From Chiloscyllium plagiosum (taxonomy: Eukaryota): a DNA stretch of 51,010 nt. A model generated the notes under the pieces. It was not told where the DNA came from, ran no database searches, and worked only from the letters and a program-made list of their open reading frames with translations. Below, piece after piece: positions 1,051 to 40,253 of the stretch; the first letter of the stretch is position 1; the number at the start of each line of letters is the position of its first letter. The position numbers and the translations under genes are program-made. Where the stretch lies: assembly GCF_004010195.1 (NCBI RefSeq), contig NC_057752.1, positions 13,408,272 through 13,459,281 on the forward strand, in the 5' to 3' direction.

Positions 1051-1520
1051 GGTAAAAACAATGACTGCAGATGCTGGAAACCAGATTTTGGATTAGTGGT
1101 GCTGGAAGAGCAGAGCAGTTCAGGCAGCATCCAAGGAGCAGCGAGATTGACGTTTCGGGCAAAAGCTCTTCATCAGGAATAAAGGCAGTGAGCCTGAAGC
1201 ATGGAGAGATAAGCTAGAGGAGGGTGGGGGTGGGGAGAAAGTAGCATTTCACAACATGGTTGAAGAGCTTCAGGGCAGAAGAAATGACCTGGGAGTTGCA
1301 GTGGGAGAGGGACTCCCTGAGATTCTTGTAGAGAGAGGAGGAAAACTTCTTCAAGGCAGGCATCCTTGCAAGAGGATTCGCACTAGGGTTAAAATCAACG
1401 AGGTAAAAACAATGACTGCAGATGCTGGAAACCAGATTCTGGATCAGTGGTGCTGGAAGAGCACAGCAGTTCAGGCAGCATCCGAGGAGCAGCAAAATCG
1501 ACGTTTCGGGCAAAAGCCCT
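1051..1520 (-). mobile_element. Short Penelope-like element: two tandem pLTR copies with a fragment of the PLE ORF 5' end, 12-bp TSD
   Basis: TACAGTTACTGA at 1039-1050 and 1521-1532. Direct repeat at about 1049-1170 and 1400-1520. Hammerhead core on the minus strand. Confidence 0.8.
1146..1180 (-). ncRNA. Minimal hammerhead ribozyme motif (PLE type)
   Basis: Reverse complement: attc CTGATGA a gagc tttt gccc GAAA CGTC aat. One stem II mismatch. Confidence 0.65.
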
Positions 1521-2217
1521 TACAGTTACTGACACACTGACTGACACACTGACTGACACACCACACTGACTGACACACTGCACTGACACACTGCACTGAC
1601 TGATACAATGACTGAACACTGCACTGACTGAGATAGTGACTGACACACTGCATTGACTGACACAGCGACTGACACAGTGCACTGACTGATACAGTTACTG
1701 ACACACTGCACTGACTGACACAGTGACTGACACACTGCACTGACTGACACAGTGCACTGACTGATATACTGCACTGACTGACACAGTGCACTGACTGATA
1801 CCGTTACGGTCCTTACTGAGGTAAAGGATATTAATGCTGGGGAACCTCCCATTTCCGGATCAGATATTGCAAATCACAGATCCCTTGCCGTCTCCGAACA
1901 ATGTGCCTCAGTCCCCACCAAGGGTGTCTGTGCTGTAAGATTGATCATTGCTTACAAACTGCGGACGGTTTTTACACTAGCAGTTTCCGTGGCAACCCTC
2001 ACAGCCAATATGCCGAGGTGTTTAGCATCACCTCAGTCTCGACTGGGTCTGATCCATTTCCCAGAAACCGGGCAAAAGCGCCATGTGATTGTGCCAGCCA
2101 GTGCCCAGAAAGCATCTTTGACACGTACACTAATAATGATTACCAACTGGGGGTGCTGTTGGTGAAGGTTGATGTCAAGGAAGATAGCCACTGACCACCT
2201 TTCTTCCCTTTCTTTAG

Positions 2218-2284
2218 AGTTAGCTGTTCTGTACTGGGCCGAGCCTCAAACTCAGAGATTTACCGACCAGTGGACAGCACTATG
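2218..2284 (+). CDS. slc26a10: SLC26A10-like anion transporter, internal exon (start of STAS region: VSCSVLGRASNSEIYRPVDSTM)
   Basis: Polypyrimidine tract plus tttag acceptor (AG 2216-2217) and ATG|gtaagt donor. Phase 2 to 0, 67 nt. Peptide matches the SLC26 post-TM14 CSVLGxxxxxEIYR motif. Confidence 0.85.
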
Positions 2285-3654
2285 GTAAGTTCCAAGTCCC
2301 AACGGCCTGGAGTATCGCTTACTGAGGGATAAGGGCTGAGACAGTTTGGTGATACAGGGACCCGTACACTAGCGCTGTTCCCTCTCACCCTTAGCAGTGA
2401 CAATAATGCGGTTTAAACGGCAGAAATGTTTTGCCCTGCTGTGCTGAATTGCCTCCTCCTACGCCAGTCTAGTCAAGCTTCAGGAATCTCACTGAAACGG
2501 CCGTTTGTGACAGATGACCCTGGGCAGTGACAACCAAAAGGCAATTCAACAGTGGAGGGCATCACGTATTAACTCAACATTGAAAAACAGACAGTGTTCT
2601 GGAGAGAACTTGGAAGTGGCACAGTAAAGAGGTGATGGTCCCACGGTGGATTTGTTTTGTTTTGAAGATAACTGTTTGAAGATGTGACGAACAATCTAAT
2701 GTGTGATGTTTTCAAGTTCAACTCTTTTGCAAAGCACCCGTTATGAGAATATCTAATGGATTATAATGCCACGTGGGCTATTTTTCGTCTTGTGCAAGTG
2801 TTAGTTGTACTGCATCCGACCACAGCATAAACAACTGAAGAGGGCATTCAGTAGAGTGCACAGTGCTGCCACACTGTGATAACTCAATGCAGTACAGTGA
2901 CACTGCTGTTCCCAAGGCTTCTCCCTGGCTGGCTGACACCTCGTGACTGCAAACCTGCCAGCCAATCTTGTTTGTTCGGAGATTCCATCTCACTTCCGGC
3001 CAAACCGCAGCCGACAACCTGCTCCAAAAACTCTGCCCCCATTTTGACCAATTGTGCCGTGGCGCTTGAGAGAATCTGTCAGGTTCTAAACAAACGGCAC
3101 TCGATATTTGTGAGGGAAGGCACATTTGCCTCATCACCCGTCCATGTGCGTACGTGCCTTCAAGCCTGGAACATTCGAACGTGGATGGCGCATCCACCTT
3201 TCTGTCTAACCAGAAGAGGATTCTTGTGTAAATAGTATGAAGTATTCTGCTCCTATTTACGGGTTACCTCACTGTGATTTACATTACTGTCTCCTACATG
3301 GTCATTCTTTGCTCTGACCCAGTCCCCAAGCCAATGTCACAGTGTTTACTGCACGCGCTCAGGTATTAACCCTTTCAGAACTGTTCTAAACCTTATACAG
3401 CATCATTGTTAATGGATCCTTTCTGTGCAAGTTTGCCAAGAACTATAGACTTCTTCCTCAGGCCAGACCCTATCGGTGTACCAGGCTTTGTTGAAATCTG
3501 TCCTGTTCATTTTTCTTTTGGGATATGGCGAACAGAATGACAAACTGGGGTGTAAACGTTGCCTCTGCACATCTTCGGATTGCAGCAGCACATGGGAATG
3601 AGCACACGCGCTTACAATCAAGCAACGTTTCAAGTTTCAATGTGTCGCCGGGTC

Positions 3655-3805
3655 AAAATGCTGGAATTCACTCCCTTAGGACATTGTGGGTCTACCCACA
3701 GCACATGGACTGCAGTGGTTCAAGAAGGCAACTCAGCCCCACCTTCTCAAGGACGGGACAATATATGCTGGGCCCAGCCAGCAACACCCACATCCCAGAA
3801 ATGCA
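3655..3805 (+). mobile_element. CR1-group LINE 3' end (tail shared with the SacSINE-like element)
   Basis: GACTGCAGTGGTTCAAGAAGGC... A related copy lies at 17390-17620 (-). Confidence 0.6.
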
Positions 3806-4020
3806 TGCTAACAAGAAGCTACTTGATGTATTGGCTGACCGCATCTTGGCCTGAACTCCACTTTCCGGCCCGCTCCCCATGACCCTTCAACCCGGTACTA
3901 ATTAAGCATCTGCCTCGCTCCTCCTTAAACTTACTCAGTGTCCCAGCACCAACCGCACTCTGGGGGATTGAAGGCCACAGTCTCTCAACCTTTTGAGAGA
4001 AGTGATTCTCCTCATCCCTG

Positions 4021-4385
4021 GGTGGCACAGTGGCACAGTGGTTAGCACCGCTGCCTCACAGTGCCAGGGACCCGGGTTCGATTCCAGCCTCGGGCACTGT
4101 CTGTGTGGAGTTTGCACATTCTTCCCGTGTCTGTGTGGGTTTCCTCCAGGTGCTCCGGTTTCCTCCCACACTCCAAAGATGTGGATTGGCCATGCTAAAT
4201 TGTCCCATAGTGCCCAGGGATGTGCAGGTTAGGGTGGATTGGCCATGGGAGATTGCCCCACAATGCCCTGGAATGTGTGGCTTACTGGATTAGCCATGGG
4301 AAATGGAGTGGGTCTGGGTGATATACTTTTTGGAGGGTCAGTATGGACTCGATGGACCAAATGGCCTGCTTCCCCACTGTAGGGA
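4021..4385 (+). mobile_element. HE1-type tRNA-derived V-SINE
   Basis: A box (TGGCACAGTGG), B box (GGTTCGATTCC), V-core TGTGTGGAGTTTGCACATTCT and a CR1-like tail. Confidence 0.88.
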
Positions 4386-4884
4386 TTCGGTTTTAAATCT
4401 TATCCTGAAGCTTTGACTGCTTGTCAGGATCTCCTTTTGTGCCTGGATGTTATACTTTGTTTGGTAATCCCAACCAGGAAGCACCTTGGAATATAGCACC
4501 TGTTCATGGTGCTACATGAGTCTAAGTTGTTGTTGCTATGTGACTTGCCTGACAATTGGGCTCGAACAATGTCAGGGGATTTTGGACATGGGGCAGTGTG
4601 TGTAACAAATCGCCAGTGCGTAGTTCACGGCCCATGTCCAAGCCCATCCCTCACACTGGCTTTGCGAAGCAGTATTGCTGGTGGGCTTCACACAAGGACA
4701 GAAGGGTTGATTCCTTCACAAATCAGATGGCCAGAGAAACGGGGTTTCTGCCTCCTTCCCTTTGCTGCCCTTCAGTGGCTTTGATTGTTTCCTCTTTTAT
4801 TCCGGTCTTGTTCCCACAGCAGTGCGATTCCTGCTGCTTCAGCTGCTGCTGTCTCTGTTTAACACTCTTCTCATTCCATTCCAG

Positions 4885-5064
4885 TGCCAGGAAATTCCCG
4901 GCCTGAAGATCTTGTCTTACAACGCTCCCATTTACTATGGAAATAAGAACTATTTCCGGGATACCATGGCCAAAATAATCGGACTGACCCCAGATAAGAT
5001 CAAAAAGAGGGAAAAGAGAAAGAAAGCACTGGAAAGAGTCGGAAAGATGACCATTACCACCATC
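4885..5064 (+). CDS. slc26a10: SLC26A10-like exon (CQEIPGLKILSYNAPIYYGNKNYFRDTMAKIIGLTPDKIKKREKRKKALERVGKMTITTI)
   Basis: ttccag acceptor and ATC|gtatgt donor, 180 nt, phase 0 to 0. Carries the STAS PGxKIxxxxxPIYYGN motif. GLTPxKI...KALE resembles fish SLC26A10 as I recall it. Confidence 0.92.
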
Positions 5065-5149
5065 GTATGTTTGTTTCGGTTCCCTTCTTGAGTGTGTATA
5101 TGCACTGGTTTCTTCATGGATGGCTGATTGCTATTATTGCAGGTGTTAC

Positions 5150-5545
5150 GTGGGTCTGTATGTGTGTACAAGTTGTGTGTGTTTATGTATGTGTGTGTGC
5201 GTGTCTGCTGGTATCTGTGTGTGTGTGTCTGCGTGTCTGTGTGCATGTGTGTGAGACATAGTGTGTGTGTGTGAATGTGTGTGAGAGAGACAGTGTATGT
5301 GAATGCGTGTTTGTGTCTGTGTGTCAGGTGAAGTGGATGTGTGAGTGACAGTGCATGTGTGGCTGAGAGTGTGGGTGAGAGTCTGCATGTGTGCGCATGT
5401 CTGTCGTTGTGTGTTTGTGTGAGAATGTACATAACAGTGTGTGTCTGTCTGGGTGAGAGTGTGTGTGTGTCAGAGAGTGTTTGTGTGTATGAGTGTGTCT
5501 ACACTGGGTACTGCATGTGTGTGTGCAGGGTGTGCATGTGAATAC
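5150..5545. repeat. Degenerate (TG)n microsatellite
   Basis: Directly visible. Confidence 0.95.
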
Positions 5546-5654
5546 ATGCTCAGCCATGTTACAGACAGCTGAAGGACTGGAAAATAACAATTTTCTCACC
5601 CTAAAACAGCACACATCAGTTAGATACAGAATTCAGTTGCGTCGACATGGTTCC

Positions 5655-5960
5655 CACATGAAACCCTCCCAGGACAGGGACAGCACGAGGTTAGCTACAG
5701 AGTAAAGCCTCCTCTACACTGTCCCCACATCAAACACTCCCAGGACAGGGACAGCAAGGGGTTAGATACAGAGTAAAGCTCCTACACTGTCTTGTAACTG
5801 AAAGTTCCCTTCATGCTATTCCCATTTAACTCTCTCAAGACAGGTGCAGTGCAGAGCAAGTTACAGGCGAAAGCTCCCTCTGCACTGCGCCCATAAAACA
5901 CTCCTGGGGCAGGAACGGCATGGAATTTGATAAAGAGTAAAGCTCACTCTACACTGTCTA
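5655..5960 (+). repeat. Degenerate copies of the 70-bp minisatellite
   Basis: CCCAGGACAGGGACAGCA...TTAGATACAGAGTAAAGC units. Confidence 0.8.
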
Positions 5961-6529
5961 TATCAATGTACAGAAGGAGAATTTCATTAAATCTCAGATT
6001 CTGTTGAAGATTTGAATATGCTTGAATGCAGTATGAACGCTGTAAATATGTAACCAAGGAAGAAAATAATCTGTGGGCTTGTTAAATAGAAATCTCAATG
6101 TGGGAAACTTCCCCGTTCACATAGCTCTGTGTTTGATTCTCCTGACACACTGACCTTTTCTGTTCGAATTTCACGTGAGTCAGTTGGAGACAGTGTGTTT
6201 ATTTTTTTATGTGAGGAATTGGTCGGCGAGTGAGGGGGTGGGGGTAAATTTGAACGTTCAGCGGTAAAACTACACAAACCCCTCAGATTCTGAACAGAAA
6301 TCGCCGCAGGAACCACCCACAGTCCCTGACCAAGCATGGAATCTTCCTCCTAAAGAAACACCTCTGACCCAGAAAGGTTGAGTGAGTTACTGTGACATTT
6401 CTCTGACTACTGTTTTCAGCAGGGATGTACTTCTAATGAATCTCTTGATACCAAAATAAATGCAGGAGGAGGCTATTTAGTCCCTTGAGCTACAATGAAG
6501 ATGACCTTGAGAGAGTTGATTAAGAAAGT

Positions 6530-6845
6530 TGGGACAGCACAGTGGCACAGTGGCTAGCAGTGCTACCTCACAGAGCCAGAACCGGGGTTCAATTCTCACC
6601 TCAGGCAACTGTCTGTGTGGAGTTTGCACATTCTCCCTGTGTCTGCGTGGGTTTCCTGCAGGTGCTCAGGTCTCCTCCCACAATCCAAACATGTGCAGGT
6701 CAGGTGAATTGGCCATGCTAAATTGCCCGTAGTGTTAGGTGAAGGGGTAAATGTAGGGGAATGGGTCTGGGTGGATTGCTCTTCGGAGGATTGGTGTGGA
6801 GTTGTTGGGCCGAAGGGCCTGTTTCCACACTGTAAGTAATCTAAA
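6530..6845 (+). mobile_element. HE1-type V-SINE
   Basis: Same head, core and tail as other copies. Confidence 0.88.
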
Positions 6846-7170
6846 GCACATGGAATAGGAGGTAATGTACCAGAATAGGTCAATGACTGACTAAGAGATA
6901 GAAAACAGAGAGTAGGAATATATGAGTCATTTCTTCATTGCCAGACTTTGGCTGATGGGATACTGTGTGGATCAGTATTTGGGCCCCAGTTATTGACAAT
7001 GGGCTCCAGCTATATTTTTATTTGGACATGTGGACCAAATGTAATATTTCCACATTTGCAGATGATACCAAGCTAACAGGGAATGTGTGTTGCAAATGTG
7101 ATGTTACAGGAGGATTTGGACAGTCTTAGTAATTTGAGCAGGAACATGGAAAAAAGGAATGCAAAGTGGA
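6846..7170 (+). mobile_element. Old CR1 LINE RT fragment
   Basis: Degenerate RKQRVGI...GSVxGP...FADDTKL. Confidence 0.7.
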
Positions 7171-7177
7171 AAAAACA

Positions 7178-9679: not shown

Positions 9680-10025
9680 GGTTTCAAGGAGATCTGAGAA
9701 AATTTCTTTCCTCCAGAGGGTGGTAGAAATATGGAATGTGCTGCCTGAGAGGGTGGTGGGGGCAGATACTCTCACGACATTTAAGAAGCAACTGGATATG
9801 CCTTTATTCCTGATGAAGGGCTTTTGCCCGAAACATCGATTTTGCTGCTCGTCGGATGCTGCCTGAATTGCTGTGCTCTTCCAGCACCACTGATCCTGGA
9901 TACTTAAAATGTCAAGGCATAGTTGGCTGTGGACCAAGTGCAGATAAATGGGATTAGTATCCCTTGGTGTTTGCTGGTCAGCCCAAACATGGTGGGCCAA
10001 AGGGCCTGTTTCACTGCTGTATGAC
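9680..10025 (+). mobile_element. CR1/HER1 LINE 3' end with a nested short PLE derivative
   Basis: FxQRVVxxWNxLP...FKKQLD. The insertion at 9799-9895 is flanked by CTGGATA (9792-9798 and 9896-9902). Confidence 0.8.
9806..9841 (+). ncRNA. Minimal hammerhead motif (ACGU decayed to ACAU)
   Basis: attc CTGATGA a gggc tttt gccc GAAA CATC gatt. Confidence 0.6.
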
Positions 10026-10079
10026 TCCCTGAGACAGGCAGACAGACAATCAGAGACAGAGAGAGAGATCATAGGCTCC

Positions 10080-12385: not shown

Positions 12386-12432
12386 AAGATTCTGATGATG
12401 AAAATGAAGTTATTGTCGGGGGTGATTTAAAG

Positions 12433-12566
12433 AGGTAAAAACAATGACTGCAGATGCTGGAAACCAGATTCTGGATCAGTGGTGCTGGAAGAGCACAGCA
12501 ATTCAGGTAGCATCCGAGGAGCTTCGAAATCGATGTTTCGGGCAAAAGCCCTTCATCAGGAATAAA
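12433..12566 (-). mobile_element. About 134-bp hammerhead-bearing PLE derivative with a 15-bp TSD
   Basis: GGGGGTGATTTAAAG at 12418-12432 and 12567-12581. Hammerhead core at 12528-12563 (-). Confidence 0.85.
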
Positions 12567-13459
12567 GGGGGTGATTTAAAGCCCATCCAGTTCATTTTAA
12601 GGAAGCAAATCTGCCATCCTTACTTGGTCTGGGCCTGTATGTGTCTCCAGACCCACAGCCAATTTGGTTGACTCTTAACTGCCCCCTGGATGGACAATAA
12701 ATGCTGGCCTGACAGCGACACCCACATCTTGGGAATGAAGGAAAGGAAAAAGAATGCTGAAAATTCCAGTTTGTCATTCAGCCCCATCCCCTCAACCCCA
12801 GCTCTGGGAAGTCTTGGGGGGGACTGATAGATTTGTTATGTATGACAAGCAACCTTGTCCAATGCTCCCCTGCCTCATTGAATTCAGCTTATTCAGAATG
12901 CCTCACTACTCTGTGGGCTTTCATTGGCATAGATTGCGCCAGGCTTGTGGTCATTGTACCCACCACACCTGTGGCTCTCTCCCCCCAATACAGACACACC
13001 CCAACTCTCACCAAAAATGCTCGAGTCTCCATTTTATGGGCATTTCCTGGGCCATTTACAAGGGCCAACTCAAGACTGCCTTTGGCCCTTGATGTTCAAG
13101 CAACTGTCATACATACCAGTTATCATTTAAGATTTTATCCGAAGCTAAAAGTGTGCAGTACTTCCTCAGTGCTGAGCTGAACGTCAGCCAAGATGTTTTC
13201 TCCTCTTGTCATGGGGTGAATTCATGCGCTTCTGTCTCAGGCAAAAAATAGTGTTACCCACAGAGTCACAGTTGACACCAATTCCCACCTTAAGCCAGCT
13301 TAGCTAGTGCCCAGAACTGCCCCTTTAAGTCTGCTTGCCAATTTTCCAACTGTTTGTTAATCATTTGCCAAAACTTTCCCACTACGCAATGGAGATCCCG
13401 AGTTTATTTTCACAGCTCAGCAACGGTTGCCAATATAAATGTTGCTCTTTCTCTGACAG

Positions 13460-13548
13460 ATAAGCAAGATAAAAGGATTCAGTCTGTTGTGATCGACTGC
13501 AGTAGCATCATCTTCATTGACACAGCTGGAGCAAGATTATTTGTCCAG
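13460..13548 (+). CDS. slc26a10: SLC26A10-like exon (DKQDKRIQSVVIDCSSIIFIDTAGARLFVQ)
   Basis: ctctttctctgacag acceptor and CAG|gtaact donor, phase 1 to 0. STAS signature xIDCSxxxFIDxxG. Confidence 0.92.
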
Positions 13549-13844: not shown

Positions 13845-15125
13845 TCCTCCCACTTTCTCCAAACAAAAGGAGTAGCCATGGGCACCCGCATGGGCCCCAG
13901 CTATGCCTGCCTCTTCGTAGGGTATGTAGAACAATCCATCTTCCACAACTACACTGGCCCCACCCCCCATCTTTTCCTTCGCTACATAGATGACTCAGGA
14001 ATGAGCAGAGAGTGTTCAGCAGGAGAAGATAAAAGGTAGGGAGGAGGGACTTGGAGGAGGGGCGTTGGAAATGTGATAGGTGGAAAGAGGTCAAGGTGAG
14101 GGTGATAGGTCGGAGTAGGATGGAGGCGGAGAGGTCAAGAAGAAGACTGCAGGTCAGGAAGGTGGTGCCGGGCTGGAGGGATTCGGCTGAGACAAGTTGG
14201 GGGGAGGGGGGATGAAGAAACTGGTGAAGTCCAAGTTCATCCCCTGTGGTTGGAGGGTTCCCAGTCGGAAGATAAGATGCTCCTCCTCCGACCGTCGGGT
14301 TGTTGTGGTTTGGCGGTGGATGAGTCCAATGACCTGCATATCCTCGGTGTAGTGGGAGGGGGAGTTGAAATGCTGTGCTACAGGGTGATTGGGTTGGTTC
14401 CAACCTCCACTCCCGGCACCTTCCCTTGCAACCGCCGGAGGTGCAACACTTGCGCCCACACCTCCCCCTCACTTCTCTCCAAGGCCCCAAAGGAAACTTC
14501 CATATCCGCCACAGATTCACCTGCACCTCCACCCACATCATCTACTGCATCCGCTGCAGCCGGTGTGGCCTCCTCTATATTGGGGAGACAGGCCGCCTAC
14601 TTGCGGAGCGATTCAGAGAGCACCTCTGGGCCACCCGGACGAACCAACCCCACCAACCTGTGGCACAGCATTTCAACTCCCCCTCCCACTCCACCGAGGA
14701 TATGCAGGTCATTGGACTCATCCACCGCCAAACCACAACAACGCGACGGTCGGAGGAGGAGCGTCTTATCTTCCGACTGGGAGCCCTCCAACCACAGGGG
14801 ATGAACTTGGACTTCACCAGTTTCTTCATTCCCCCCTCCCCCCACCTTGTCTCCGCCGGGTCCCTCCCGCCCGGCACCGCCTTCCTGTCCTGCAGTCTTC
14901 TTCTTGTCCTCTCCGCCTCCATCCTACTCCGACCTATCACCCTCACCTTGACCTCTTTCCACCTATCACATTTCCAACTCCCCTCCTCCAAGTCCCTCCT
15001 CCCTACCTTTTATCTTCTCCTGCTGAACACTCTCTGCTCATTCCTGAAGAAGGGCCTGTGCCCGAAACGTCGAATCTCCTGTTCCCTGGATGCTGCCTGA
15101 CCTGCTGTGCTGTTCCAGCAATAAA
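13845..15125 (+). mobile_element. Penelope-like element (Neptune-like): RT fragment, inverted 3' segment, GIY-YIG endonuclease and pLTR
   Basis: RT QTKGVAMGTRMGPSYACLF...RYIDD (13845-13994). Cys linker CNRRRCNTC and IIYCIRCSRCGLLYIGETGR (14401-14820). 13995-14400 is the reverse complement of 14641-15047. Confidence 0.92.
15040..15075 (+). ncRNA. Minimal hammerhead ribozyme motif, intact core
   Basis: attc CTGAAGA a gggc ctgt gccc GAAA CGTC|gaat. Stem I attc/gaat, stem II gggc/gccc, ACGU palindrome in place of stem III. Confidence 0.75.
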
Positions 15126-15181
15126 GTTTCAACTTTGATAAATACTGTCCATGACATTGGCCAAGGTCAACTCTACTGCAC

Positions 15182-21200: not shown

Positions 21201-21464
21201 CCCAATGGGGGCTGCTGAACAATGCACATCTGCAGGCCTCTGATTGGCAGAGGAGGCAGGACGCCCACTCCACCACAGATTCCTTGATCTCTAGAAAGCC
21301 CCGTCATTAATGTGTCCCTCCTTGCCTGCATTAACATTTTTAAAAACACATTAGTGGGATGTGGGTGTCTACGGCTAGGGTGGCATTTATTGCCCATCAG
21401 GCACTTAAAAATCAACCACAGCTCCATAACTCTGGAGACACGTGTAGGACTGACTGAGTAAATT

Positions 21465-22530
21465 TCCCCTCCCATGTGGTTGAAGATGCCCTCCAACGCA
21501 TCTCATCCACATCCCGCACCTCCATCCTCGAACTCTACCCCTCCAACCGTAACAAGGACAGAACACCCCTGGTGCTCACCTTCCACCCTACCAACCTCCG
21601 CATAAATTGCATCATCCGCCGACATTTCCGCCACCTCCAAACAGACCCCACCACCAGGGATATATTCCCCATCCCACCCCTTTCCTCCTTCCGCAAAGAC
21701 TGTTCCCTCTGCGACTACCTGGTCAAGTCCACGCCCCCCAACAACCCACCCTCCCATCCTGGCACCCTCCCCTGCCACCGCAGGAATTGCAAAACCTGCG
21801 CCCACACCTCCTCCCTCACCTCTATCCTCCTCTATCGCCACTCCTTCACTACCCGACACCTAGAGGAAGAACGCCTGGTCTTCCGCCTCGGAATACTTCA
21901 ACCCTTTGGCATCAATGTGAACTTCACCAGTTTCCTCATTTCCGCTCCTCCCCTTACCCCAGTTCCAATCTTACAGCTCAGTACCGCCCTCATGACCTGT
22001 CAATCTTCCTTCCCACCTATCCGCTCTGCCCTCCTCTCAGACCTAATACTCTTACTCCCACATCCATCCACCTATTGCACTCTCAGCAACCTTACCCACA
22101 CACCATCCCCCTCCCATTTATTTCTCCACCCCCGAGGCTCCCAGCCTCATTCCTGATGAAGGGGAAATGCAGGGTCCTTTCACAGTGACCATCTCCTCAC
22201 ATTGCGATACAATGTTGCAGTCTTTAAAATAAGGAGGGCTTTGGAGTTCAGCAGACACAAAGAAAGTATTGTGTAAGCCTGCAGTTTAAAAGAGCAGTGG
22301 TGGCGGTTTAAAGCTTGTTAATGCCTGAGGTAAAGTATGCTTATATTACACATAGCCTCAAGCAGGCAATCTTACAGAATGTATCTGGGTGGCCATTCTC
22401 GGGGAACCCTGCTTTTTGCCCGAAACGTCGATTTTCCTGCTCCTTGGCTGCTGTCTGACTTGCTATGCTTTTCCAGCACCACTCTAATCTTGACTCTAAT
22501 CTCCAGCATCTGCAGTACCCACTTCTGCCT
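21465..22530 (+). mobile_element. Penelope-like element (RT thumb/linker, internally deleted GIY-YIG, pLTR interrupted by a 245-bp insertion)
   Basis: RTPLVLTFHP...CHRRNCKTC...EEERLVFRLG. The hammerhead is split: CTGATGAAGG at 22153-22162 and GCTTTTTGCCCGAAACGTC from 22411. Confidence 0.88.
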
Positions 22531-26048: not shown

Positions 26049-26890
26049 GGTTGTAAGTTTGCTAGCTGAACTGGCAGGATGTTTTCAGATGTTTCATCAC
26101 CATGCTAGGTAACATCATCAGTGAGCCTCCGGTGAAGTGCTGGTGTTCTGTCCTTCTTTCTGTTTATGTGTCTTGGTCTGTTGTGGTGGGTGATATCATT
26201 TCCAGTTCTTTTCTCATAGGTTGGTAAATAGGGTCCAAATCGATGTGTTTACTGATAGAGTTCTGGGTTGAATGCCAGGCCTCTAGGAATTCCCATGCTT
26301 GTCTCTGTTTAGCCTGTCCCAGTCGAAGTGGTGTCCTTCTTCACCTGTTTGTCCAATGTAGTGTTTGTTACAGTCCTTGCAGGGCGTTTTGTAAATGACA
26401 TCCGTTTTGCAAAACCCTGCAAGGACTGTAACAAAGACTACAGTGGACAAACAAGCAGAAACCTAGCCACCAGGATACATGAACACCAACTAGCCACCAA
26501 AACGACATGACCCACTCTCACTAGTATACTTACATACGGACAAAGAAGAACACCACTTTGACTGGGACAGCACCTCCATCCTGGGACAGGCTAAACAGAG
26601 ATACGCATGGGAATTCCTAGAGGCCTGACATTCAACCCAGAACTCCATCAGTAAACACATCGATTTGGACCCTATTTACCAACCTATGAGAAATAGAAAC
26701 AGAAGTGACATCATCCACCTTAAGAAACTAAAACACATAAATAGAAAGAGAGACAGAACACCAGCGCTTCACCAGAGGCTCACTGATGATGTTACCTAGT
26801 AGGGTGATGAAACGTCTGAAAACAAACCTGCCAACTCAGTGAGCAAACTTACAACCTGAACGTCAACCTGAGCTACAAATCTTCTCAAAA
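26049..26890 (+). mobile_element. Penelope/Poseidon-type PLE: GIY-YIG 3' end with an inverted upstream copy
   Basis: KPCKDCNKDYSGQTSRNLATRIHEH...FDWD...EFLEA. About 26049-26345 is the diverged reverse complement of about 26555-26856. Confidence 0.85.
26780..26819 (+). ncRNA. Minimal hammerhead motif, second PLE family
   Basis: tca CTGATGA t gttacc tagtag ggtgat GAAA CGTC|tga. Related copies at 26085-26124 (-) and 33131-33170 (-). Confidence 0.7.
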
Positions 26891-27980
26891 CTCACAAAGG
26901 CTTCAGAGAAGATGGGCAAGGAATGATTCCAGGAGTTGGGACACAATAGTAGGAGGACATCCCTGCGGGTTCAGCTCATTTTCATTGGGGAGAGGAGGAT
27001 TGAGAGGGATGTGTTCTGTTAGCAAGAAAAGAAATGGGGGGTGGGCCTGTCTCCGACAGAACTGGTTCCTGACTGTGAGGAGCCAGTTCCCGAGCCACCT
27101 GCAATGGTCACACCACTGGGGCAACTGCGGTGCAGCTCAACCAGCACAAACAGCAAGAGGTTTGTTTGCTCAGCTTTAAAGAAGGTGCTTGCATGTCAAG
27201 TGTGGGAGCAAAAGAATTGGCGATAGACAGCCCAGCTGTTGCTCACGCTGGGATCATCCATAAAGCGCTAATCTGCCTTCTGTACTGGCAGGGGGATGAC
27301 AAGAGAACTGATTTATTGCAGCGCAAAACCCCGCCAGCCAATCCTCTGCCGCTTGCCATGCTGAGTGCAGCCCGCAACGTAGCCTAGGATGTTCCACAGG
27401 CCGTGAAAGCACTGTTTCTGAGGAGGGGCCAGGCTTGATGGACCGAAAGGCTTGTTCTTGTTTTGTGCTTCCTCCCCATTCCCCAAGATTTGAAAGGGAT
27501 CCCGGTCTTGCCATCTTGAATCTTTCTGACAACTTTTGTATCTGCCTTTAGCCATGGTCACCCATTGGGTGCAATGCTTCATAAAGGCTTCTCTTAATTC
27601 TTGGGAGCTAGCCTCCACCACACCACACTTATGGATCCCCTACCTTTTATTTGTGTCTATAACTGTTGCTTTCCCTTTCGATGCTCAGTCAACTATTAAG
27701 TCTCGTCCTTCTCTCCTGATTGATCCCATTTGTTGATGCGAGGGGCTCGGAGGTAGTGAAGAACTGCAGGCAATCAGGGGAGCGAAGGAAGCAAAGCAGA
27801 TTGCCTCAATGGAAAAGGCAGCTCTTGAGAGAATTCTCTAACTTTGCTCCTTGTGCGCGTCACCATTGCTCAGAAAGCAAGCTGCTCTGCAATTTCAACT
27901 CAATCCAGAATAGTACATGGTCGGCCAGTTGTGAGGCTAAAGGTTTAAAAATATCAACATGATTATTTCTCTTTTTTTAG

Positions 27981-28370: not shown

Positions 28371-28376
28371 AATAAA
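28371..28376 (+). promoter_or_regulatory. Candidate polyadenylation signal for the SLC26 gene
   Basis: First AATAAA seen downstream of the stop codon (about 350 nt). Confidence 0.35.
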
Positions 28377-32880: not shown

Positions 32881-33094
32881 TACTGAGCAATGTTTTTATT
32901 TGTTCATAGGATTCTTTCATTCTGGCTAGACCAGCGCTTATTGCACATCCCTAATTGCCCAGAGGGCAGATAAGAGTCAGACACATTGGCTATGGATCAC
33001 ACATAGGCCAGACTAGGTAAGGATGGCATATTTCCTTCTCTAAAAGACATCAACACCCTGGGGAGTGTAGCCAAACAAAGAGACCTAGGAGTCT

Positions 33095-33263
33095 GGATGT
33101 AGGTTTGCTCACTGAGCTGGAAGGTTTGTTTCAGACATTTCATCATCATACTAGGGAACATCTTCAGTGAGGCTCTGGATGAAACACTGGTGATGTAGCC
33201 TGCTTCCTATTTATGTGTTTGGGTGGCCTGGGGTTGGTGATGTCATTTCCTGTGGTGATGTCA
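33095..33263 (-). mobile_element. Poseidon-type PLE pLTR fragment running into a gap
   Basis: Similar to 26049-26210. Confidence 0.7.
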
Positions 33264-33763
33264 NNNNNNNNNNNNNNNNNNNNNNNNNNNNNNNNNNNNN
33301 NNNNNNNNNNNNNNNNNNNNNNNNNNNNNNNNNNNNNNNNNNNNNNNNNNNNNNNNNNNNNNNNNNNNNNNNNNNNNNNNNNNNNNNNNNNNNNNNNNNN
33401 NNNNNNNNNNNNNNNNNNNNNNNNNNNNNNNNNNNNNNNNNNNNNNNNNNNNNNNNNNNNNNNNNNNNNNNNNNNNNNNNNNNNNNNNNNNNNNNNNNNN
33501 NNNNNNNNNNNNNNNNNNNNNNNNNNNNNNNNNNNNNNNNNNNNNNNNNNNNNNNNNNNNNNNNNNNNNNNNNNNNNNNNNNNNNNNNNNNNNNNNNNNN
33601 NNNNNNNNNNNNNNNNNNNNNNNNNNNNNNNNNNNNNNNNNNNNNNNNNNNNNNNNNNNNNNNNNNNNNNNNNNNNNNNNNNNNNNNNNNNNNNNNNNNN
33701 NNNNNNNNNNNNNNNNNNNNNNNNNNNNNNNNNNNNNNNNNNNNNNNNNNNNNNNNNNNNNNN
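33264..33763. other. Assembly gap (500 N)
   Basis: Run of N. Confidence 1.
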
Positions 33764-33764
33764 C

Positions 33765-34070
33765 CCCCCATGTCAGTCTGAAATGGCCTCCCCCGTATCC
33801 ATAAACTGTGACCGCCAGCTTCTGGACTCCCCCACCACTGGGAATATCCTTCCTGTGTTGACCCTGTCTAGTACGGTTAGAATTTTATAGGTTTCTATTA
33901 ACTCTCCTTTCCATCTCAACTCCAGTGAATATAATCCTAACTGATCCAGTCTCTCTTCATACGACAGTCCTGCCATCCCAGGAATCAGTCTGGGAAACCT
34001 TTGCTGTACTCCCTCCATCACCAGAACATCCTTCCTCAGATAAGGAGACCCAAACTGCACACAATACATC
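33765..34070 (-). mobile_element. CR1 LINE 3' fragment
   Basis: YCVQFGSPYLRKD...GLSYEERL. Confidence 0.85.
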
Positions 34071-34489
34071 AATCTCGATTTATCCGGATTAGAGTGGACA
34101 CCAGCGGTGTTTTAATTCCCCCTTTAGTCTTTTATGGGATGTGGGCATCACTGGCAAGGTGCCCACTTCATGCCCTTGAATCGAGCAGCTCACTAGACTA
34201 TTTCAGAGGGCGGTTAAGGATGGATCCCATTGCTGTGGATCTGGAGTCACATGTCAACCAGACCAGGTGAGAACTCACTTCCTTGATTCTTCTATGGGCC
34301 AACACGGACTAATTTTCTTGGCCTGCCATTTTTAATCAAAGGTTTCAACGTTTTGCCTTTCAGTACCAGTCTGCATTGGCATGTCATGCCACAATCACCA
34401 CTTGTTCTGAAAGCTTCTAACCCCAGTGTTTGCTAACGTCACAACTGCATTTATGCACAAGTGACACTGAATCGCTTCAAAAGAATCGG

Positions 34490-35940
34490 ATTCCCCACAG
34501 CGTGGAAACAGGCCATTCGGCCCGACAAGTCCACACCATCCCTCCGAAGAGTATCCCACCAAGACCCAGTCCCCGACTCTATCACTCCACATTTACCCTT
34601 GACTGATGCACATCCCTGGGCACTATGGGACAATTTAGCATGGCCAATCCACCCTAACCTGCACATCCCTGGACACTATGGGACAATTTAGCATGGCCAA
34701 TCCACCCTAACCTGCACATCCCTGGGCACTATNNNNNNNNNNNNNNNNNNNNNNNNNNNNNNNNNNNNNNNNNNNNNNNNNNNNNNNNNNNNNNNNNNNN
34801 NNNNNNNNNNNNNNNNNNNNNNNNNNNNNNNNNNNNNNNNNNNNNNNNNNNNNNNNNNNNNNNNNNNNNNNNNNNNNNNNNNNNNNNNNNNNNNNNNNNN
34901 NNNNNNNNNNNNNNNNNNNNNNNNNNNNNNNNNNNNNNNNNNNNNNNNNNNNNNNNNNNNNNNNNNNNNNNNNNNNNNNNNNNNNNNNNNNNNNNNNNNN
35001 NNNNNNNNNNNNNNNNNNNNNNNNNNNNNNNNNNNNNNNNNNNNNNNNNNNNNNNNNNNNNNNNNNNNNNNNNNNNNNNNNNNNNNNNNNNNNNNNNNNN
35101 NNNNNNNNNNNNNNNNNNNNNNNNNNNNNNNNNNNNNNNNNNNNNNNNNNNNNNNNNNNNNNNNNNNNNNNNNNNNNNNNNNNNNNNNNNNNNNNNNNNN
35201 NNNNNNNNNNNNNNNNNNNNNNNNNNNNNNNNNNNNNNNNNNNNNNNNNNNNNNNNNNNNNNNNNNNNNNNNNNNNNNNNNNNNNNNNNNNNNNNNNNNN
35301 NNNNNNNNNNNNNNNNNNNNNNNNNNNNNNNNNNNNNNNNNNNNNNNNNNNNNNNNNNNNNNNNNNNNNNNNNNNNNNNNNNNNNNNNNNNNNNNNNNNN
35401 NNNNNNNNNNNNNNNNNNNNNNNNNNNNNNNNNNNNNNNNNNNNNNNNNNNNNNNNNNNNNNNNNNNNNNNNNNNNNNNNNNNNNNNNNNNNNNNNNNNN
35501 NNNNNNNNNNNNNNNNNNNNNNNNNNNNNNNNNNNNNNNNNNNNNNNNNNNNNNNNNNNNNNNNNNNNNNNNNNNNNNNNNNNNNNNNNNNNNNNNNNNN
35601 NNNNNNNNNNNNNNNNNNNNNNNNNNNNNNNNNNNNNNNNNNNNNNNNNNNNNNNNNNNNNNNNNCCTAACCTGCACATCCCTGGGCACTATGGGGCAAT
35701 TTAGCACGGCCAATCCACCCTAACCTGCACATCCCTGGGCACTATGGGACAATTTAGCATGGCCAATCCACCCTAACCTGCACATTTTTGGATTATGGGA
35801 GGAAACCGGAGCACCCGGAGGAAACCCACACAGACACAGGGAGAATGTGCAAACTCCACACAGACAGTTGCCCGAAGCTGGAATCAAGCCCAGGTCCCTG
35901 GTGCTGTGAGGCAGCAGTGCTAGCCACCAAGTCACTGTGC
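34490..35940 (-). mobile_element. HE1 SINE with an expanded internal 53-bp tandem repeat spanning a gap (34733-35665)
   Basis: Tail at 34490, head at about 35940. The 53-bp unit appears on both sides of the gap. Confidence 0.8.
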
Positions 35941-36289
35941 AGCCAAGGGCTTTGGAATCTTTGAAGATTGCAAACAAAACATGGAAGATGCGCGGTTTTT
36001 GATCCATCCTTATGAGCTGGTGACGACAAAATGCTTCTGAAGGCAAAACAAAAATGCTCACAAACCTGTCAGCCCAGTGACAAAACTCACAAGAATGTCG
36101 CCAAGTCTTCAACCCATTCTCGGGCGTTGAACGTCAAACGTCGCTTGGAAGAACTCAACCGGAGGTACAGGCTTTATGTTCAAATGAACATGGGAGTTAG
36201 GTATTGGTTTTGCCATACCAAATGACTCCAGGGTGGGAAAGGACGGGAATCTTCATCTGTAATGCCAACTAAATTTGGTCAATGCCCAG

Positions 36290-36870
36290 AAACAGGGACC
36301 GGAGTAAGCCATCCGGCCCGCTCCCCCATGTAGTAAGATCACGGCTGATCTGATATTCCTCACGGCCACTCTCCTGCTCTTCCCCTGAACCTCTGATTCC
36401 CGGGTTGATCAGGACTCTATCTCAGCCTTTAATATACACAAGGACTGTGCCTCCACAGCTCTCTGTGGCAAGGAGGTCCACAGACTCCCAACCCTCTGGG
36501 AGAAAGAATTCTCCCTCATCTTAGTTTTAAATTGGTCCCCCTTCGTTCTGAGCCTATATCCTCTGGTTCTAGACTCCCCCAGGAGGGGAAACATCCTCTC
36601 AGTATTTACCCTGCCAAGCCCCTAAGGAATCCAATATCTTCCACTGAGATCACCTCTCATCCTTCTCAACTCCAGTGAGTAGAGTCCCAGCCTGTTTAAC
36701 CTTTTCTCCCACACCAGGGACCATCCGAGTGAACCTTCTCTGAACTGTCTCCAATGAAATGATATATTTCCGTAAATAAGGGACCAGAGCTGCTCACAGT
36801 GTTCCAGACGTGGTCTCACCAGCACCTTGTACAGTTACAGTAAGACTTCCCTAATCTTATACTCCAACCC
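36290..36870 (-). mobile_element. CR1 LINE 3' fragment
   Basis: LVRPRLEHC...GESRTRG. Confidence 0.85.
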
Positions 36871-37544
36871 CCTCAAAAGAATACATCACAGCAGAAAGCC
36901 ATTGTCTACTACTTTAGCGAGCTATTTTTATTGCTCAGTTAATCCCATTCCCTGCCCCATCCGTAAAATTCTTTTCCCAAGTATTTAACCAGTTCCCTTT
37001 TAAGAGTTGTAACTGAATTTGCTTCCACTGTCTTTTTGAGAAGAGCATTTAGTCATTAGAACAATTCATGACGCAATTTGCTTTCCCATCACATCTGCTC
37101 AAGTTCTGCATCAATCACATTAAGCTGTGCCCTTTGGTTACCACAGAAATCTTCAACTGCATTTTCAAAACCTCACAATTTTGTATACCTCTGTCCCCGA
37201 GGACAATTAACCCAGCTCATACAGTTACGGTCTTCCAACACACAAACAGACCCTTCGGCCCAACTCGTCTGTGCTGGCCAGGTTTCCCAACCTAAATTAG
37301 TCCCACTTGCCGGTCTCTGACCCAAATCCCTATGAACCTTTCCTATTCATGAACCTGCCTAAATGTCTGTCAAAGGGTGTAACTGTACCTGCTTCCACCT
37401 ATTCCTCTGGCAGCTCGTTCCAGGTTTGAGGGCTGGACGGTTCTCTCCTCTTCCTATTTCTCATGTTATTTTCTTAATTATTCATTTATCTGTGTGGGTG
37501 AGTGGAGTTTAATATATTTCCAATTACAAAGCCAGAGATGTCGG

Positions 37545-38332
37545 CAACATAGATAAAGGCCGTTGACCCATCAAGTCCATGCTAGTCAAAAACAACCCCC
37601 TGACTATTCAAATCCCATTCCCCAGGACTGGGCCCCATAGCCTTGTCTGCACAGAGTTTACATCTAAATCCTTCTTCAATGCGCTGAGGGTTTCTGCCTC
37701 TCTCACCACTACAAGCAGGGAGTTACAGATTCCCACCACCCTCTGGGGGGGGAAGAGAGGTTTGTCCACACATCCCCTCGGACCCTCCTGCCCCTTGTCT
37801 TCATTCTATGCCCCTGGTCAATGATCCTGCCGTCAAGGGGAAAGTTTCCTTCCTGTCCACCCTGTCTATATCCCTCATTATTGGATACATCTCAGTAATG
37901 TTTCCTCCTCAATCTCCTCTGCTCCAAGGAAAACACCCCAGTCTGTCCAATCTCTCTCCATCACAGAAACACTACAGACCAGGCAACATCCTGGTAAATC
38001 TCCATTGCCCCAGACCAGGCAACACCCCGGTAAATCCCCTCTGCTCCAGACCAGGCACCATCCTGGTAAATCCCCTCTACCCCAGACCAGGCAACACCCC
38101 AGTAAATCCCCATTGCCCCAGACCGGGCAACACCCCGGTAAATCCCCTCTACCCCAGACCAGGCAACACCCCGGTAAATCCCCCCTGCTCCAGACCAGGC
38201 AACATCCCGGTAAATCCCCTCTGCTCCAGACCAGGCACCATCCTGCTAAATCTCCCCTGCTCCAGACTAGGCACCATCCTGGTAAATCTCCCCTGCTCCA
38301 GACTAGGCACCATCCTGGTAAATCTCCCCTGC
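37545..38332 (-). mobile_element. CR1 LINE 3' fragment ending in a 36-bp tandem array (37975-38332, about 10 copies)
   Basis: Unit CCAGACCAGGCAACAYCCYGGTAAATCCCCTCTGCT, corresponding to the CR1 RFTRMLPG segment. Confidence 0.8.
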
Positions 38333-39935
38333 AGTTGTTATGAAACTAATTTGTGTCCTTACCTTTGTTAATGCGGCGTGCATACCATAGATGGTGTGAG
38401 AAATAGTCCAAGTTGCTGAGACTCTGATAATGCTCAGCTGTACTGAGGGAGATAGAATAAAGAGTTTCATCGTGGGTGTTAGTAGGTGTTGCTTATGCTT
38501 GGTGTGATGGGGGAGGGGGGGGATTATTGAGGGGTAGTGTTCTGGAATGGAGGGGAACGGGGGAACCAGGGAGTGGCAGAATTGGGCAGACTGGTGTGAA
38601 ATTTGACTGGCTGCTGAATTCCTGGGTTGTGTTAGCTCCCGAGGCGAGAGACGGTGGCACACTGGTAATCTGACTTAAACTGAAGGCAGCCCCATTACCC
38701 CAAGGGCGCAGCTTAATCCTTCAGCTGCTGGTGGGATTTACATTCATTTAATAAATCCAGAATCTCAAGCCGGTGTTTTTGTAACGACCAAATGATTGCT
38801 TACAAGTACAGATAATCCCCGGTCGCTGAGGGGTCCAGAGGAGATTGAAGACAAGTGGAGTCCATTTGCAAGTCAATTTGTACGCAACTCAGAACACAAC
38901 ATAGTACAGCGCAAAGGAGCTGAATGCAATTATGGGAAACATTTCACGTTGCGGTCTTCAAAATTAAAGCTCTGTGTGGGATCAGGTTCATAGGTATGAG
39001 CAGTCATAAGTTGGAGAGCCCCGATAACACTGATTGTTCACTTGTCTCATTCATGTCTTTCAGGAAGTAAATTTGTCACTCTGACCTGGTCCAGCCTACA
39101 CTTGACTCCAGACCCATGGGGTTGACTCGTAACCACCCTCAAAAACAGGCGAGCCACTCGTTTCAAGGGCAATCATGGACTGGCAATAAATGCCAGCGAT
39201 GCCCACATCCCCTGAAAGGCTTTGTAATGACAAAAGCCAACTGTGACAATGCAAGGTTTTCTTAGCGTGCAGCTTTCCATTGGATTCGATGGAACCGAGG
39301 GAAGGTTGCATTAAGTTGCTGTAGTTACAAAGCCTAACTGAAATAGGCACAGCAGCTGAACAAACAAACGTTCAGGCTGCGACTTTCTGACATCACGAGA
39401 TAAGCATACAGCTGCTTTGCTTAAACACTATCGTTGCCAACTGTTATGCAGATGTGGGTGTACTGTACCTTTAAGAGAGATAAAAGCTAGCAAAAACTAT
39501 CTGACAGAACCAAGTGTTCTGAAAAAACATAAGGTAACATTTGGTCGAACAACTTGATTAGCCGGTTGCCGGGAAATGACACAACTGTTTCGAATTAGGC
39601 CAATCAGTTTAAATTATACCCCAAAAAATACTAAACTCTAACCCAGTTTGGACAAGAGTATATTGACAATCTTAAAAGCCAATGAGACAATCCGATGCTT
39701 GGGGGCTACAAGACCGGGGAAAATTGAACACTTACGAGGAGAACTGCTAAGCCAACGACTTCTGCACACTGCCCAGAAAAATAGCTCTCTTAAAGGTACC
39801 TTTATCAATCAGGAACCGGTGAAGCAAAATTCCCAAGACGACCAGAATACAGAGAAGAACAAAAGCTGCCTAGTTTTGAGATAAACGTTTTGTAAATCGT
39901 AATCGAGAGTTTTATCTGGCTAGTATTGTAGAAGG

Positions 39936-40155
39936 AGAAAGTGAGGTCTGCAGATGCTGGAGATCAGAGCTGGAAATGTGTTGCTGGAAAAGCGCAGCAG
40001 GTCAGACAGCATCCAGGGAACAGGAGAATCGACGTTTCGGGCATAAGCCCTTCTTCAGGAATCTTCATTCCTGAAGAAGGGCTTATGCCCGAAACGTCGA
40101 TTCTCCTGTTCCCTGGATGCTGCCTGACCTGCTGCGCTTTTCCAGCAACACATTT
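39936..40155. mobile_element. Palindromic hammerhead-bearing PLE derivative with a 16-bp TSD
   Basis: CTAGTATTGTAGAAGG at 39920-39935 and 40156-40171. 90-bp arms at 39973-40062 and 40067-40156 with a 4-nt loop. Confidence 0.9.
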
Positions 40156-40253
40156 CTAGTATTGTAGAAGGCGAAGGTAAAAATTAGATTTATAGGAAGG
40201 AATTGTAAATCGTTGTTATTGCACACGGCACAATAGGTGGCTCAGTGGAATGG

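What the first reader, a model, noticed from the sequence alone, without database searches (positions are those of the whole stretch)
1051..40171. Family of tiny, TSD-flanked, hammerhead-bearing PLE derivatives moving without ORFs
Seen: four insertions consist essentially of the pLTR/hammerhead unit, each with its own TSD: 1051-1520 (12 bp), 9799-9895 (7 bp), 12433-12566 (15 bp) and 39936-40155 (16 bp). They share CTGA(T/A)GA-a-GGGC-N4-GCCC-GAAAC(G/A)TC and sit inside a satellite, a CR1, a SINE and an LTR, so each is younger than its host. Several truncate within a few bases of the catalytic core. Established: PLE pLTRs carry minimal type I hammerheads whose ACGU palindrome permits dimeric self-cleavage. 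Inference: either a retrozyme-like non-autonomous family mobilised by the Neptune-like PLE, or extreme truncations whose ends are set by the ribozyme.
Basis: partly seen in the sequence, partly recalled or inferred. Interest (0 to 1): 0.7.

Follow-up and report, generated by a model that had tools for sequence, protein, structure and literature searches.

The report
Penelope end-stubs and a deletion cassette
These four small insertions are real end-pieces of an ordinary Penelope-type jumping gene, very common in this genome; they start at the front edge of a hammerhead-ribozyme motif rather than at its predicted cut site, likely because copying runs off the start of the parent RNA, so they are probably by-products rather than an independent ribozyme-driven family.

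Summary
All four insertions and their 12/7/15/16-bp duplications are exact, but they are not one family. 9799 and 12433 are solo pLTRs, 39936 is a head-to-head pair, and 1051 is an internally deleted element (pLTR part, ORF start, 3' UTR, pLTR). In 1.17 Mb sampled at fixed steps, 130 of 164 insertions are such stubs. Of 199 5' ends, 115 lie at -12..+10 of the CUGA box; the predicted cleavage site shows no excess (7 against 6.2 expected). Stubs form no lineage apart from long copies. In 39 of 42 inverted pairs one arm ends at each of the two Penelope 'tail' sites, and in four pairs picked for carrying a deletion both arms share the same junction. Likely mechanism: the RT primes from one or both target nicks and runs off the RNA start. 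The 351-nt deleted unit recurs with many junctions, also sits at the 3' end of RT/EN copies, and is rarely tandem, so it is not shown to be a retrozyme. The shapes are published. This scan found the stubs before, in this and other genomes. No RNA-end or cleavage data support the mechanism yet.

The parts
1039..1050 (.). left target-site duplication of copy 1 (12 bp), in a satellite
1402..1520 (-). copy 1: upstream pLTR, subfamily A, begins at +7 (after CUGAUGA), ends at the distal tail site
1253..1401 (-). copy 1: start of the PLE ORF region (ATG at 1363; 37 codons match the long ORF, then a 49-aa frame closes at 1214)
1181..1252 (-). copy 1: deletion junction (about 1249-1253) and the last ~70 nt of the PLE 3' UTR
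1051..1180 (-). copy 1: terminal pLTR, distal 3' end; damaged minimal hammerhead at 1145-1180 (C3 = 1176, predicted cut 1149/1148)
1521..1532 (.). right target-site duplication of copy 1
9792..9902 (+). copy 2: solo pLTR 9799-9895, subfamily A, from -11 to +85 (proximal end), 7-bp duplications 9792-9798 and 9896-9902; hammerhead 9806-9841 with ACGU changed to ACAU
12418..12581 (-). copy 3: solo pLTR 12433-12566, subfamily A, from -7 to +126 (distal end), 15-bp duplications 12418-12432 and 12567-12581; ACGU changed to ACAU
39936..40062 (-). copy 4, left arm: pLTR of subfamily B from -4 to about +122 (distal end), intact minimal hammerhead (C3 = 40058)
40063..40155 (+). copy 4, right arm: pLTR from about -6 to +84 (proximal end), intact minimal hammerhead (C3 = 40071); the pair is head to head
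39920..39935 (.). left target-site duplication of copy 4 (16 bp)
40156..40171 (.). right target-site duplication of copy 4
13846..15139 (+). parent-type element: rearranged Neptune-like PLE of subfamily B (RT fragment, inverted segment 13995-14400, CX4CX2C linker and GIY-YIG at 14402-14830, hammerhead 15040-15075)

Best explanation
The insertions are end-pieces of ordinary Neptune-like Penelope elements, likely written by the element's own endonuclease and reverse transcriptase, which would start copying at one of two fixed 'tail' sites inside the RNA and likely stop where the RNA begins, at the 5' edge of the hammerhead motif. Shown here: two fixed 3' ends (about +88 and +126), a 5'-end peak at -12..+10, duplications with a mode of 15 bp on inverted pairs, stubs intermixed with long copies, one long and one short arm per inverted pair. 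Inferred: the enzyme nicks both target strands about 15 nt apart; each 3'-OH primes on the same template, one at each tail site; keeping both cDNAs gives a head-to-head pair (copy 4), keeping one gives a solo (copies 2, 3). Inferred: the 5' peak is the transcription start of the pLTR promoter. Copy 1 is the same chemistry on a template that already lacked the middle of the ORF; such deletions arise repeatedly, often at a 3' hot spot at -76. Solo stubs would be dead ends if, as in the anole element, priming needs sequence beyond the tail. The hammerhead is inherited cargo and does not define the ends by cutting.
For: 5' ends: 115 of 199 arms at -12..+10, mode -3/-4, rate 0.052 per nt against 0.0073 beside it; cleavage window +26..+30 has 7 ends against 6.2 expected. 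The peak holds in solos plus long copies (47 of 95) and inverted arms (66 of 101), and in subfamilies A, B and C. In a dissimilar hammerhead family (H), about 11 of 29 copies share 15 nt or less upstream of CUGA (read by eye). 3' ends are bimodal. Inverted pairs: 39 of 42 have one distal and one proximal end (P = 3e-9 against 50:50); duplications of 8 bp or more in 32 of 43, control mean 0.7. The proximal arm reaches further 5' in 18 pairs, the distal in 14, tie in 8, which a simple fold-back of one cDNA does not give. Arms share haplotype (9% mismatch at polymorphic columns against 46% background, n = 9) and share a rare deletion junction in 4 of 4 fetched pairs. Tiny/long label is unclustered on the tree, and the window's long element is identical to four tiny arms over 86 columns. 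Precedent: two internal start sites, both strands nicked and extended, predicted dimer, hammerhead cleavage not needed (PMC11167929); internal Inr/DPE promoter in the pLTR (PMC2377424). An initiator-like word (TCATTC, TTATTC, TCAGTT; consensus recalled) has its A at -4 in A, B, C and D.
Against: No RNA 5' end was measured. Family H has only a weak initiator match. In copies that continue into the ORF start, 5' ends are spread from -91 to +106, with only 5 of 26 readable ones in the peak (5 of the 9 that reach it). Only 17 of 68 solos show a duplication of 8 bp or more (control 1.4), 8 of 35 among young ones. The tree has 86 columns and 12 of 81 well-supported branches, so small stub-only lineages could be missed. 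One locus (L184) has two arms with different deletion units, across an assembly gap. Deletions at a palindrome's centre after insertion could imitate the arm asymmetry. The P values treat arms as independent.
Confidence: 0.65

Rival explanations
1. Same by-product origin, but the 5' peak is a block to copying: the RT falls off at the folded or protein-bound hammerhead rather than at the RNA start.
For: The boundary follows the ribozyme's 5' edge in dissimilar families, including H with a weak initiator word. About a quarter of arms that reach the peak pass it (35 of 150). In the anole element the protein assists hammerhead cleavage, so it may bind there.
Against: An RT moving 3' to 5' meets stem I's 3' strand (+28) and stem II (+19) first, and neither shows an excess. 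Stem I is only 3-4 bp and is absent from the predicted folds. Read-through copies are expected from tandem templates anyway.
Confidence: 0.18
2. Inverted pairs arise by fold-back or self-priming of one molecule (the antisense self-priming idea of Arkhipova 2013), with the endonuclease trimming the second end.
For: Arms share haplotype and deletion junctions. Many junctions have microhomology or palindromic centres. The idea is in print (PMC3846280; PMC8557442).
Against: A proximal arm cannot template a distal one, yet the proximal arm reaches further 5' in 18 of 40 pairs, by up to about 90 nt (also L261). It does not explain the solos' shared 5' edge.
Confidence: 0.08
3. A retrozyme-like non-autonomous family: short RNAs are cut by the hammerhead, circularised and mobilised in trans. 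Most plausible for the ~350-nt unit of copy 1.
For: All 40 scored candidates (of 2,034) match at least 349 of copy 1's 470 nt at 85-100%. At least 139 exact-motif deleted units exist. The deletion is in the template. One same-junction dimer (L258) and a probable second (G000:C49:7512849-7513567, not fetched). Chondrichthyan retrozyme families average 363 bp (bioRxiv 10.64898/2026.07.22.740005).
Against: Many different junctions, and the same junction on different haplotypes. Tandem units: 0 and 2 matches against 139 single ones. The unit also ends RT- or EN-bearing copies, one bounded by a duplication (L169), so 5' truncation of such copies suffices. Copy 1's two pLTRs differ at 8 of 120 positions, 3 at polymorphic columns. 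Copy 1 has no intact ribozyme. The small stubs have no own lineage.
Confidence: 0.07
4. Copy ends are set by hammerhead self-cleavage of the template, or solos come from recombination between the two pLTRs of a full element.
For: The motif is conserved with varied stems (81 full matches against 0-1 in shuffles). 16 of 196 arms end at +24..+32. Recombination was suggested for rotifer solos.
Against: Every peak copy keeps the whole core upstream of the cut; the rate at the cut equals background. ORF-start sequence occurs at only 5 loci in 1.17 Mb against 73 solos. Neither route makes inverted pairs.
Confidence: 0.02

Closest known systems
EN+ Penelope-like elements, Neptune type: 5'-truncated copies, solo and inverted pLTRs with a one-sided 30-40-bp tail (PMC3846280, PMC8557442, PMC2377424; passages read)
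   Same: pLTR, head-to-head inversion, tail on one end, target-site duplications, CX2-5CXXC linker before GIY-YIG in the parent.
   Different: Here the stubs are about 79% of insertions, their 5' ends peak at one place, and the one-long-one-short rule is nearly strict (39 of 42). The passages read describe these shapes without such counts.
Anole Poseidon element PAc in vitro (PMC11167929; parts 1-2 of 4 read)
   Same: Two adjacent internal RT start sites matching genomic ends; both strands nicked and extended; hammerhead cut not needed and not seen in RNA-seq.
   Different: Other clade. The text read does not discuss inverted insertions or pairing of the two start sites. Its ORF starts in stem II; here the first ATG lies about 165 nt past C3.
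Minimal type I hammerheads of metazoan PLEs (PMC4209133; parts 1-2 of 4 read)
   Same: Extra base between 9 and 10.1, G10.1-C11.1, palindromic 15.2-16.2, U3-A8 core variant; mostly single dispersed motifs ascribed to truncated PLEs, some pairs 100-700 bp apart on opposite strands.
   Different: No shark family named in the text read; only copy 4 of the four keeps an intact motif.
Non-LTR retrozymes (PMC7761336, passages; bioRxiv 10.64898/2026.07.22.740005, parts 1-3 of 5)
   Same: PLE-derived, unit of a few hundred nt, type I hammerhead; copy 1's unit (351 nt) is in range.
   Different: Retrozymes are tandem repeats with a full hammerhead in each unit and circular RNAs. Here units are almost all single, have mixed junctions and a minimal motif.
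Non-autonomous Chlamys PLEs such as MRC1 (PMC8557442, passage)
   Same: ORF-less PLE derivatives with pLTRs.
   Different: Those are defined families, often in head-to-tail arrays; here a continuum of deletions from about 250 to 1,100 bp.

Membership tests
EN+ Penelope-like element (Neptune type) insertion | parent encodes RT and GIY-YIG endonuclease | tested here: met
   GIY-YIG E = 4.7e-5, above cut-off; RT fragment only weak, E = 0.033; same pLTRs joined to RT/EN sequence in L167-L181
EN+ Penelope-like element (Neptune type) insertion | CX2-5CXXC linker before GIY-YIG | tested here: met
   CNRRRCNTC in ORF 14369-15100; definition from PMC8557442
EN+ Penelope-like element (Neptune type) insertion | two 3' ends 30-40 bp apart (tail) and target-site duplication | tested here: met
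EN+ Penelope-like element (Neptune type) insertion | RT phylogeny within Neptune | not tested
   no full-length RT was recovered; long copies break at assembly gaps
Minimal type I hammerhead | CUGANGA, extra base, stem II with G10.1-C11.1, GAAA, NUH | tested here: met
   met in copies 2, 3 and both arms of 4; damaged in copy 1
Minimal type I hammerhead | palindromic 15.2-16.2 for dimer formation | tested here: inconclusive
   ACGU present in copy 4 and copy 1; lost in copies 2 and 3
Minimal type I hammerhead | stem covariation | tested here: met
   81 of 205 core matches have paired stems against 0-1 of about 54 in three shuffles; different paired stems in about six families. The pair tables come from motifs chosen for pairing, and no compensatory change is seen within A, B, C stem II apart from one GAGC/GCTC copy
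Minimal type I hammerhead | self-cleavage as a dimer | not testable with these tools
   needs an assay
Non-LTR retrozyme | tandem units, each with a complete hammerhead | tested here: not met
   copies 2-4 are single or inverted; copy 1 has no intact motif; genome-wide 2 tandem against 139 single matches. The assembly may collapse arrays
Non-LTR retrozyme | own lineage, propagating apart from the autonomous element | tested here: not met
   17 changes against 17.4 shuffled; many junctions
Non-LTR retrozyme | circular RNA of unit length | not testable with these tools
   only poly(A) single-cell reads and contigs were available
Non-LTR retrozyme | no protein-coding sequence | tested here: inconclusive
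   met for copies 2-4; copy 1 keeps 37 codons of the PLE ORF
Retroelement whose 5' end is made by ribozyme cleavage | copy 5' ends at the cleavage site | tested here: not met
   7 ends against 6.2 expected at +26..+30

The most novel reading that the evidence does not exclude
A Penelope RT-endonuclease dimer grips one RNA asymmetrically and primes from both nicked target strands at two sites about 37 nt apart, so every complete event is a one-long-one-short head-to-head pair and solos are events that lost an arm. The RNA begins at the hammerhead's first base, with initiator and stem I encoded by the same nucleotides. The recurrent ~300-350-nt deletion units, which keep exactly the ORF-start stretch beyond the tail, are RT-loading cassettes and the raw material from which animal retrozymes are born.
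Probability: 0.35. Interest if true: 0.7.

Novelty: new member of a known kind. Interest (0 to 1): 0.42.

Why it matters
How Penelope elements make their inverted ends, tails and pseudo-LTRs is still open. About 110 stubs per Mb in the sample (roughly 4 x 10^5 genome-wide if the sample is typical) give a large record of the reaction. They yield two predictions that an existing in vitro system and RNA-end mapping can test: paired use of the two start sites, and an RNA start at the ribozyme's first base. They also show that genome-wide hammerhead counts in such genomes mostly count dead stubs, and that the palindromes can pass for microRNA hairpins.

Tried and rejected
Rfam scan: no hammerhead family reached; mir-680 and MIR2630 hits are far below their gathering scores and fall on the palindromes. 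Single-strand folding: z from -1.3 to +0.8, the hammerhead fold is not the minimum-energy state, as expected for a minimal motif. RNA runs: no holder on record as RNA. One poly(A) single-cell run of a coded organism gave 925 and 607 reads on both strands, with no place where many molecules begin or end; a second gave none; contigs cannot show ends. These lays say nothing for or against a start site, cleavage or circles. Splicing as the cause of the deleted units: rejected, the donor side lacks GT and the acceptor side lacks AG at the common junctions. A DPE at +28: only 3 of 5 positions fit the recalled consensus. A full-length subfamily A element could not be recovered: 20 extended loci break at gaps or are truncated. 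Eleven near-identical cassette copies (L151-L161) abut assembly gaps and may be partly assembly consensus, so I rely on gap-free loci (L169, L171, L258-L262). Duplication search on 'long' copies (1 of 24) is uninformative because their 5' ends were not defined. Paper searches listed no paper on shark PLE stub ends or on pairing of the two tail sites; the library lacks subscription journals, Repbase and Dfam, and the retrozyme preprint's supplementary tables, which may list this unit, were not seen.
Full report
Observation. The four insertions lie at the stated coordinates with exact duplications of 12, 7, 15 and 16 bp. The hammerhead-like core occurs 9 times in the window against 0.67 by chance. 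I number positions from C3 of the CUGA box; the predicted cut (after GUC) falls between +27 and +28. Copy 2 (9799-9895, +) runs from -11 to +85 and copy 3 (12433-12566, -) from -7 to +126. Copy 4 is two arms head to head, -4 to about +122 and about -6 to +84. Copy 1 (1051-1520, -) is a pLTR starting at +7, about 150 nt of ORF start, a junction, about 70 nt of 3' UTR and a second pLTR; its repeat unit is 351 nt. Copy 1 sits in a satellite; the other three interrupt older repeats, whose class I did not test. The genome looks like that of a cartilaginous fish from its repeats (recalled, not tested).

Parent. The window holds a rearranged long relative at 13846-15139 with a GIY-YIG domain (E = 4.7e-5), a weak RT fragment and a CX4CX2C linker, the motif given for Neptune and Nematis PLEs (PMC8557442, passages). 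Copy 4 belongs with it (subfamily B); copies 1-3 form subfamily A, whose pLTR is joined to RT and EN sequence elsewhere and whose ORF start continues as a longer frame in L249.

Hammerhead. In 1.168 Mb sampled at fixed steps (120 stretches), a core-only pattern gave 205 matches, 81 with paired stems I and II, against 51-56 and 0-1 in three shuffles. About six families show different paired stems and two motifs have the U3-A8 variant. This matches the minimal type I motif described in PMC4209133 (parts 1-2 of 4), which already reports mostly single dispersed motifs from truncated PLEs. Of the four copies only copy 4 is intact; 2 and 3 have lost the ACGU palindrome and copy 1's motifs are cut or mismatched. 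Activity is untested.

Where copies end. A profile search found 285 arms; 278 aligned to references, 212 passed 80% identity and a score filter (the rest are older or other families), and 13 with a gap or stretch edge at the 5' side were dropped, leaving 199. They group into 164 insertions: 73 solo, 46 inverted, 11 inverted with a weak partner, 33 longer, 1 complex. Stubs are 130 of 164, about 111 per Mb, 1.6% of sampled bases. 115 of 199 5' ends fall at -12..+10 (16.2 expected; mode -3/-4); the cut site window has 7 against 6.2. Duplication-anchored solos agree: 14 of 16 start between -10 and +7. A dissimilar family (H) shows the same edge in about 11 of 29 copies, by eye. The A of an initiator-like word lies at -4 in A, B, C and D (consensus recalled), and Drosophila Penelope has an internal Inr/DPE promoter in its pLTR (PMC2377424, passages). 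I infer that the edge is the RNA start. Against this, family H fits the initiator poorly, copies that run into the ORF start have scattered 5' ends (5 of 26 in the peak), and the RNA lays showed no start or end peak.

3' ends are bimodal at about +88 and +126, the tail signature that PMC11167929 (parts 1-2 of 4) traced to two internal RT start sites. Of 43 inverted pairs with both ends readable, 39 have one of each, 2 two short, 1 two long, 1 unclear; 32 of 43 carry a duplication of 10-17 bp (control 0.7), against 17 of 68 solos (control 1.4). A tail on one end only is described in PMC3846280 and PMC8557442 (passages). The short arm reaches further 5' in 18 pairs, the long arm in 14, tie in 8, which a fold-back of one cDNA does not predict. 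Arms share haplotype, and in four pairs picked because both arms held a deleted unit, the junction is the same in both arms, with one long and one short end. With the in vitro nicking and extension of both strands, I infer double priming on one template. One gapped locus (L184) has arms with different units.

One family? A tree of 70 tiny and 19 long pLTRs (86 columns, weakly resolved) needs 17 label changes, as shuffles do (17.4), and the window's long element is identical to four tiny arms. The stubs track each active subfamily and show no lineage of their own.

Copy 1. All 40 scored candidates of 2,034 match at least 349 of its 470 nt. The junctions differ, with a 3'-side hot spot at -76 and 5' sides mostly 110-160 nt into the ORF start; one junction occurs on two haplotype backgrounds. 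Exact-motif searches found 96 and 43 single units but 0 and 2 tandem ones, one with the same junction twice and one with two different junctions. The unit also forms the 3' end of RT- or EN-bearing copies, including gap-free L169 with a 12-bp duplication. In the unbiased sample the ORF start occurs at only 5 loci, at least 3 of them in such units. So deleted templates are transcribed and copied, but whether in cis behind a full ORF or in trans is open. A preprint derives animal retrozymes from PLE pLTRs and reports chondrichthyan families averaging 363 bp (10.64898/2026.07.22.740005, parts 1-3 of 5; supplements not seen); its criterion of two tandem units with full hammerheads is not met by any of the four copies (see also PMC7761336, passages). 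Lunse et al. 2017 was seen only as a reference entry.

Verdict. Real, abundant and mostly ordinary: Penelope end-stubs plus a recurrent deletion unit. The shapes are in print; the counts sharpen an open mechanistic question. Eight earlier notes of this scan, two from this genome, reached the same reading for the stubs; I had recorded mine before opening them, and they are not independent support. The lines shown from them do not mention the deleted cassette or the shared-junction test.

Noticed in passing
window 26050-26900: Inverted insertion of a second PLE family (hammerheads at 26091-26121 - and 26783-26813 +, GIY-YIG-like coding remnants), 11-bp duplication at 26039-26049/26901-26911; by eye one arm ends about 40 nt further than the other, as in the main families. 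A third such motif lies at 33128-33167.
   Followed up: partly
window 21458-22530: Older subfamily C PLE whose hammerhead is split in stem II by an insertion of about 240 bp (22164-22408).
   Followed up: no
window 13995-14400: The inverted segment of the long element copies 14641-15047 and breaks at +3 of the hammerhead, then joins an RT fragment; a break at the same edge but on the segment's 3' side.
   Followed up: no
window 13459-13548: Exon-like stretch matching the STAS domain (E = 4.4e-5), so some of the insertions may lie in introns of an SLC26-type transporter gene.
   Followed up: partly
L141, L148-L166 (for example L169:1638-1644): A young group of cassette-bearing copies shares an A-to-G change at core position 9 of the middle pLTR's hammerhead, while the terminal pLTR is intact: a template with one predicted-dead ribozyme was still copied.
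   Followed up: partly
L257:1394-2039 and L147: Two different deletion units in tandem, in L257 of different haplotypes, suggesting template jumps between RNAs.
   Followed up: partly
L261:1147-1463: About nine head-to-tail repeats of a 34-nt piece of the ORF start inside an inverted insertion, like RT stuttering.
   Followed up: no
L079:2133-2711, L047:1956-2327, L189:7333-7491: Deletion units of the same design in subfamilies B and C.
   Followed up: partly
window 40007-40122 and 26338-26460: Sub-threshold Rfam microRNA hits are the palindromic centres of PLE inversions.
   Followed up: yes
L063:3123-3159, L200:4144-4182: U3-A8 hammerhead core variant in two different families.
   Followed up: partly
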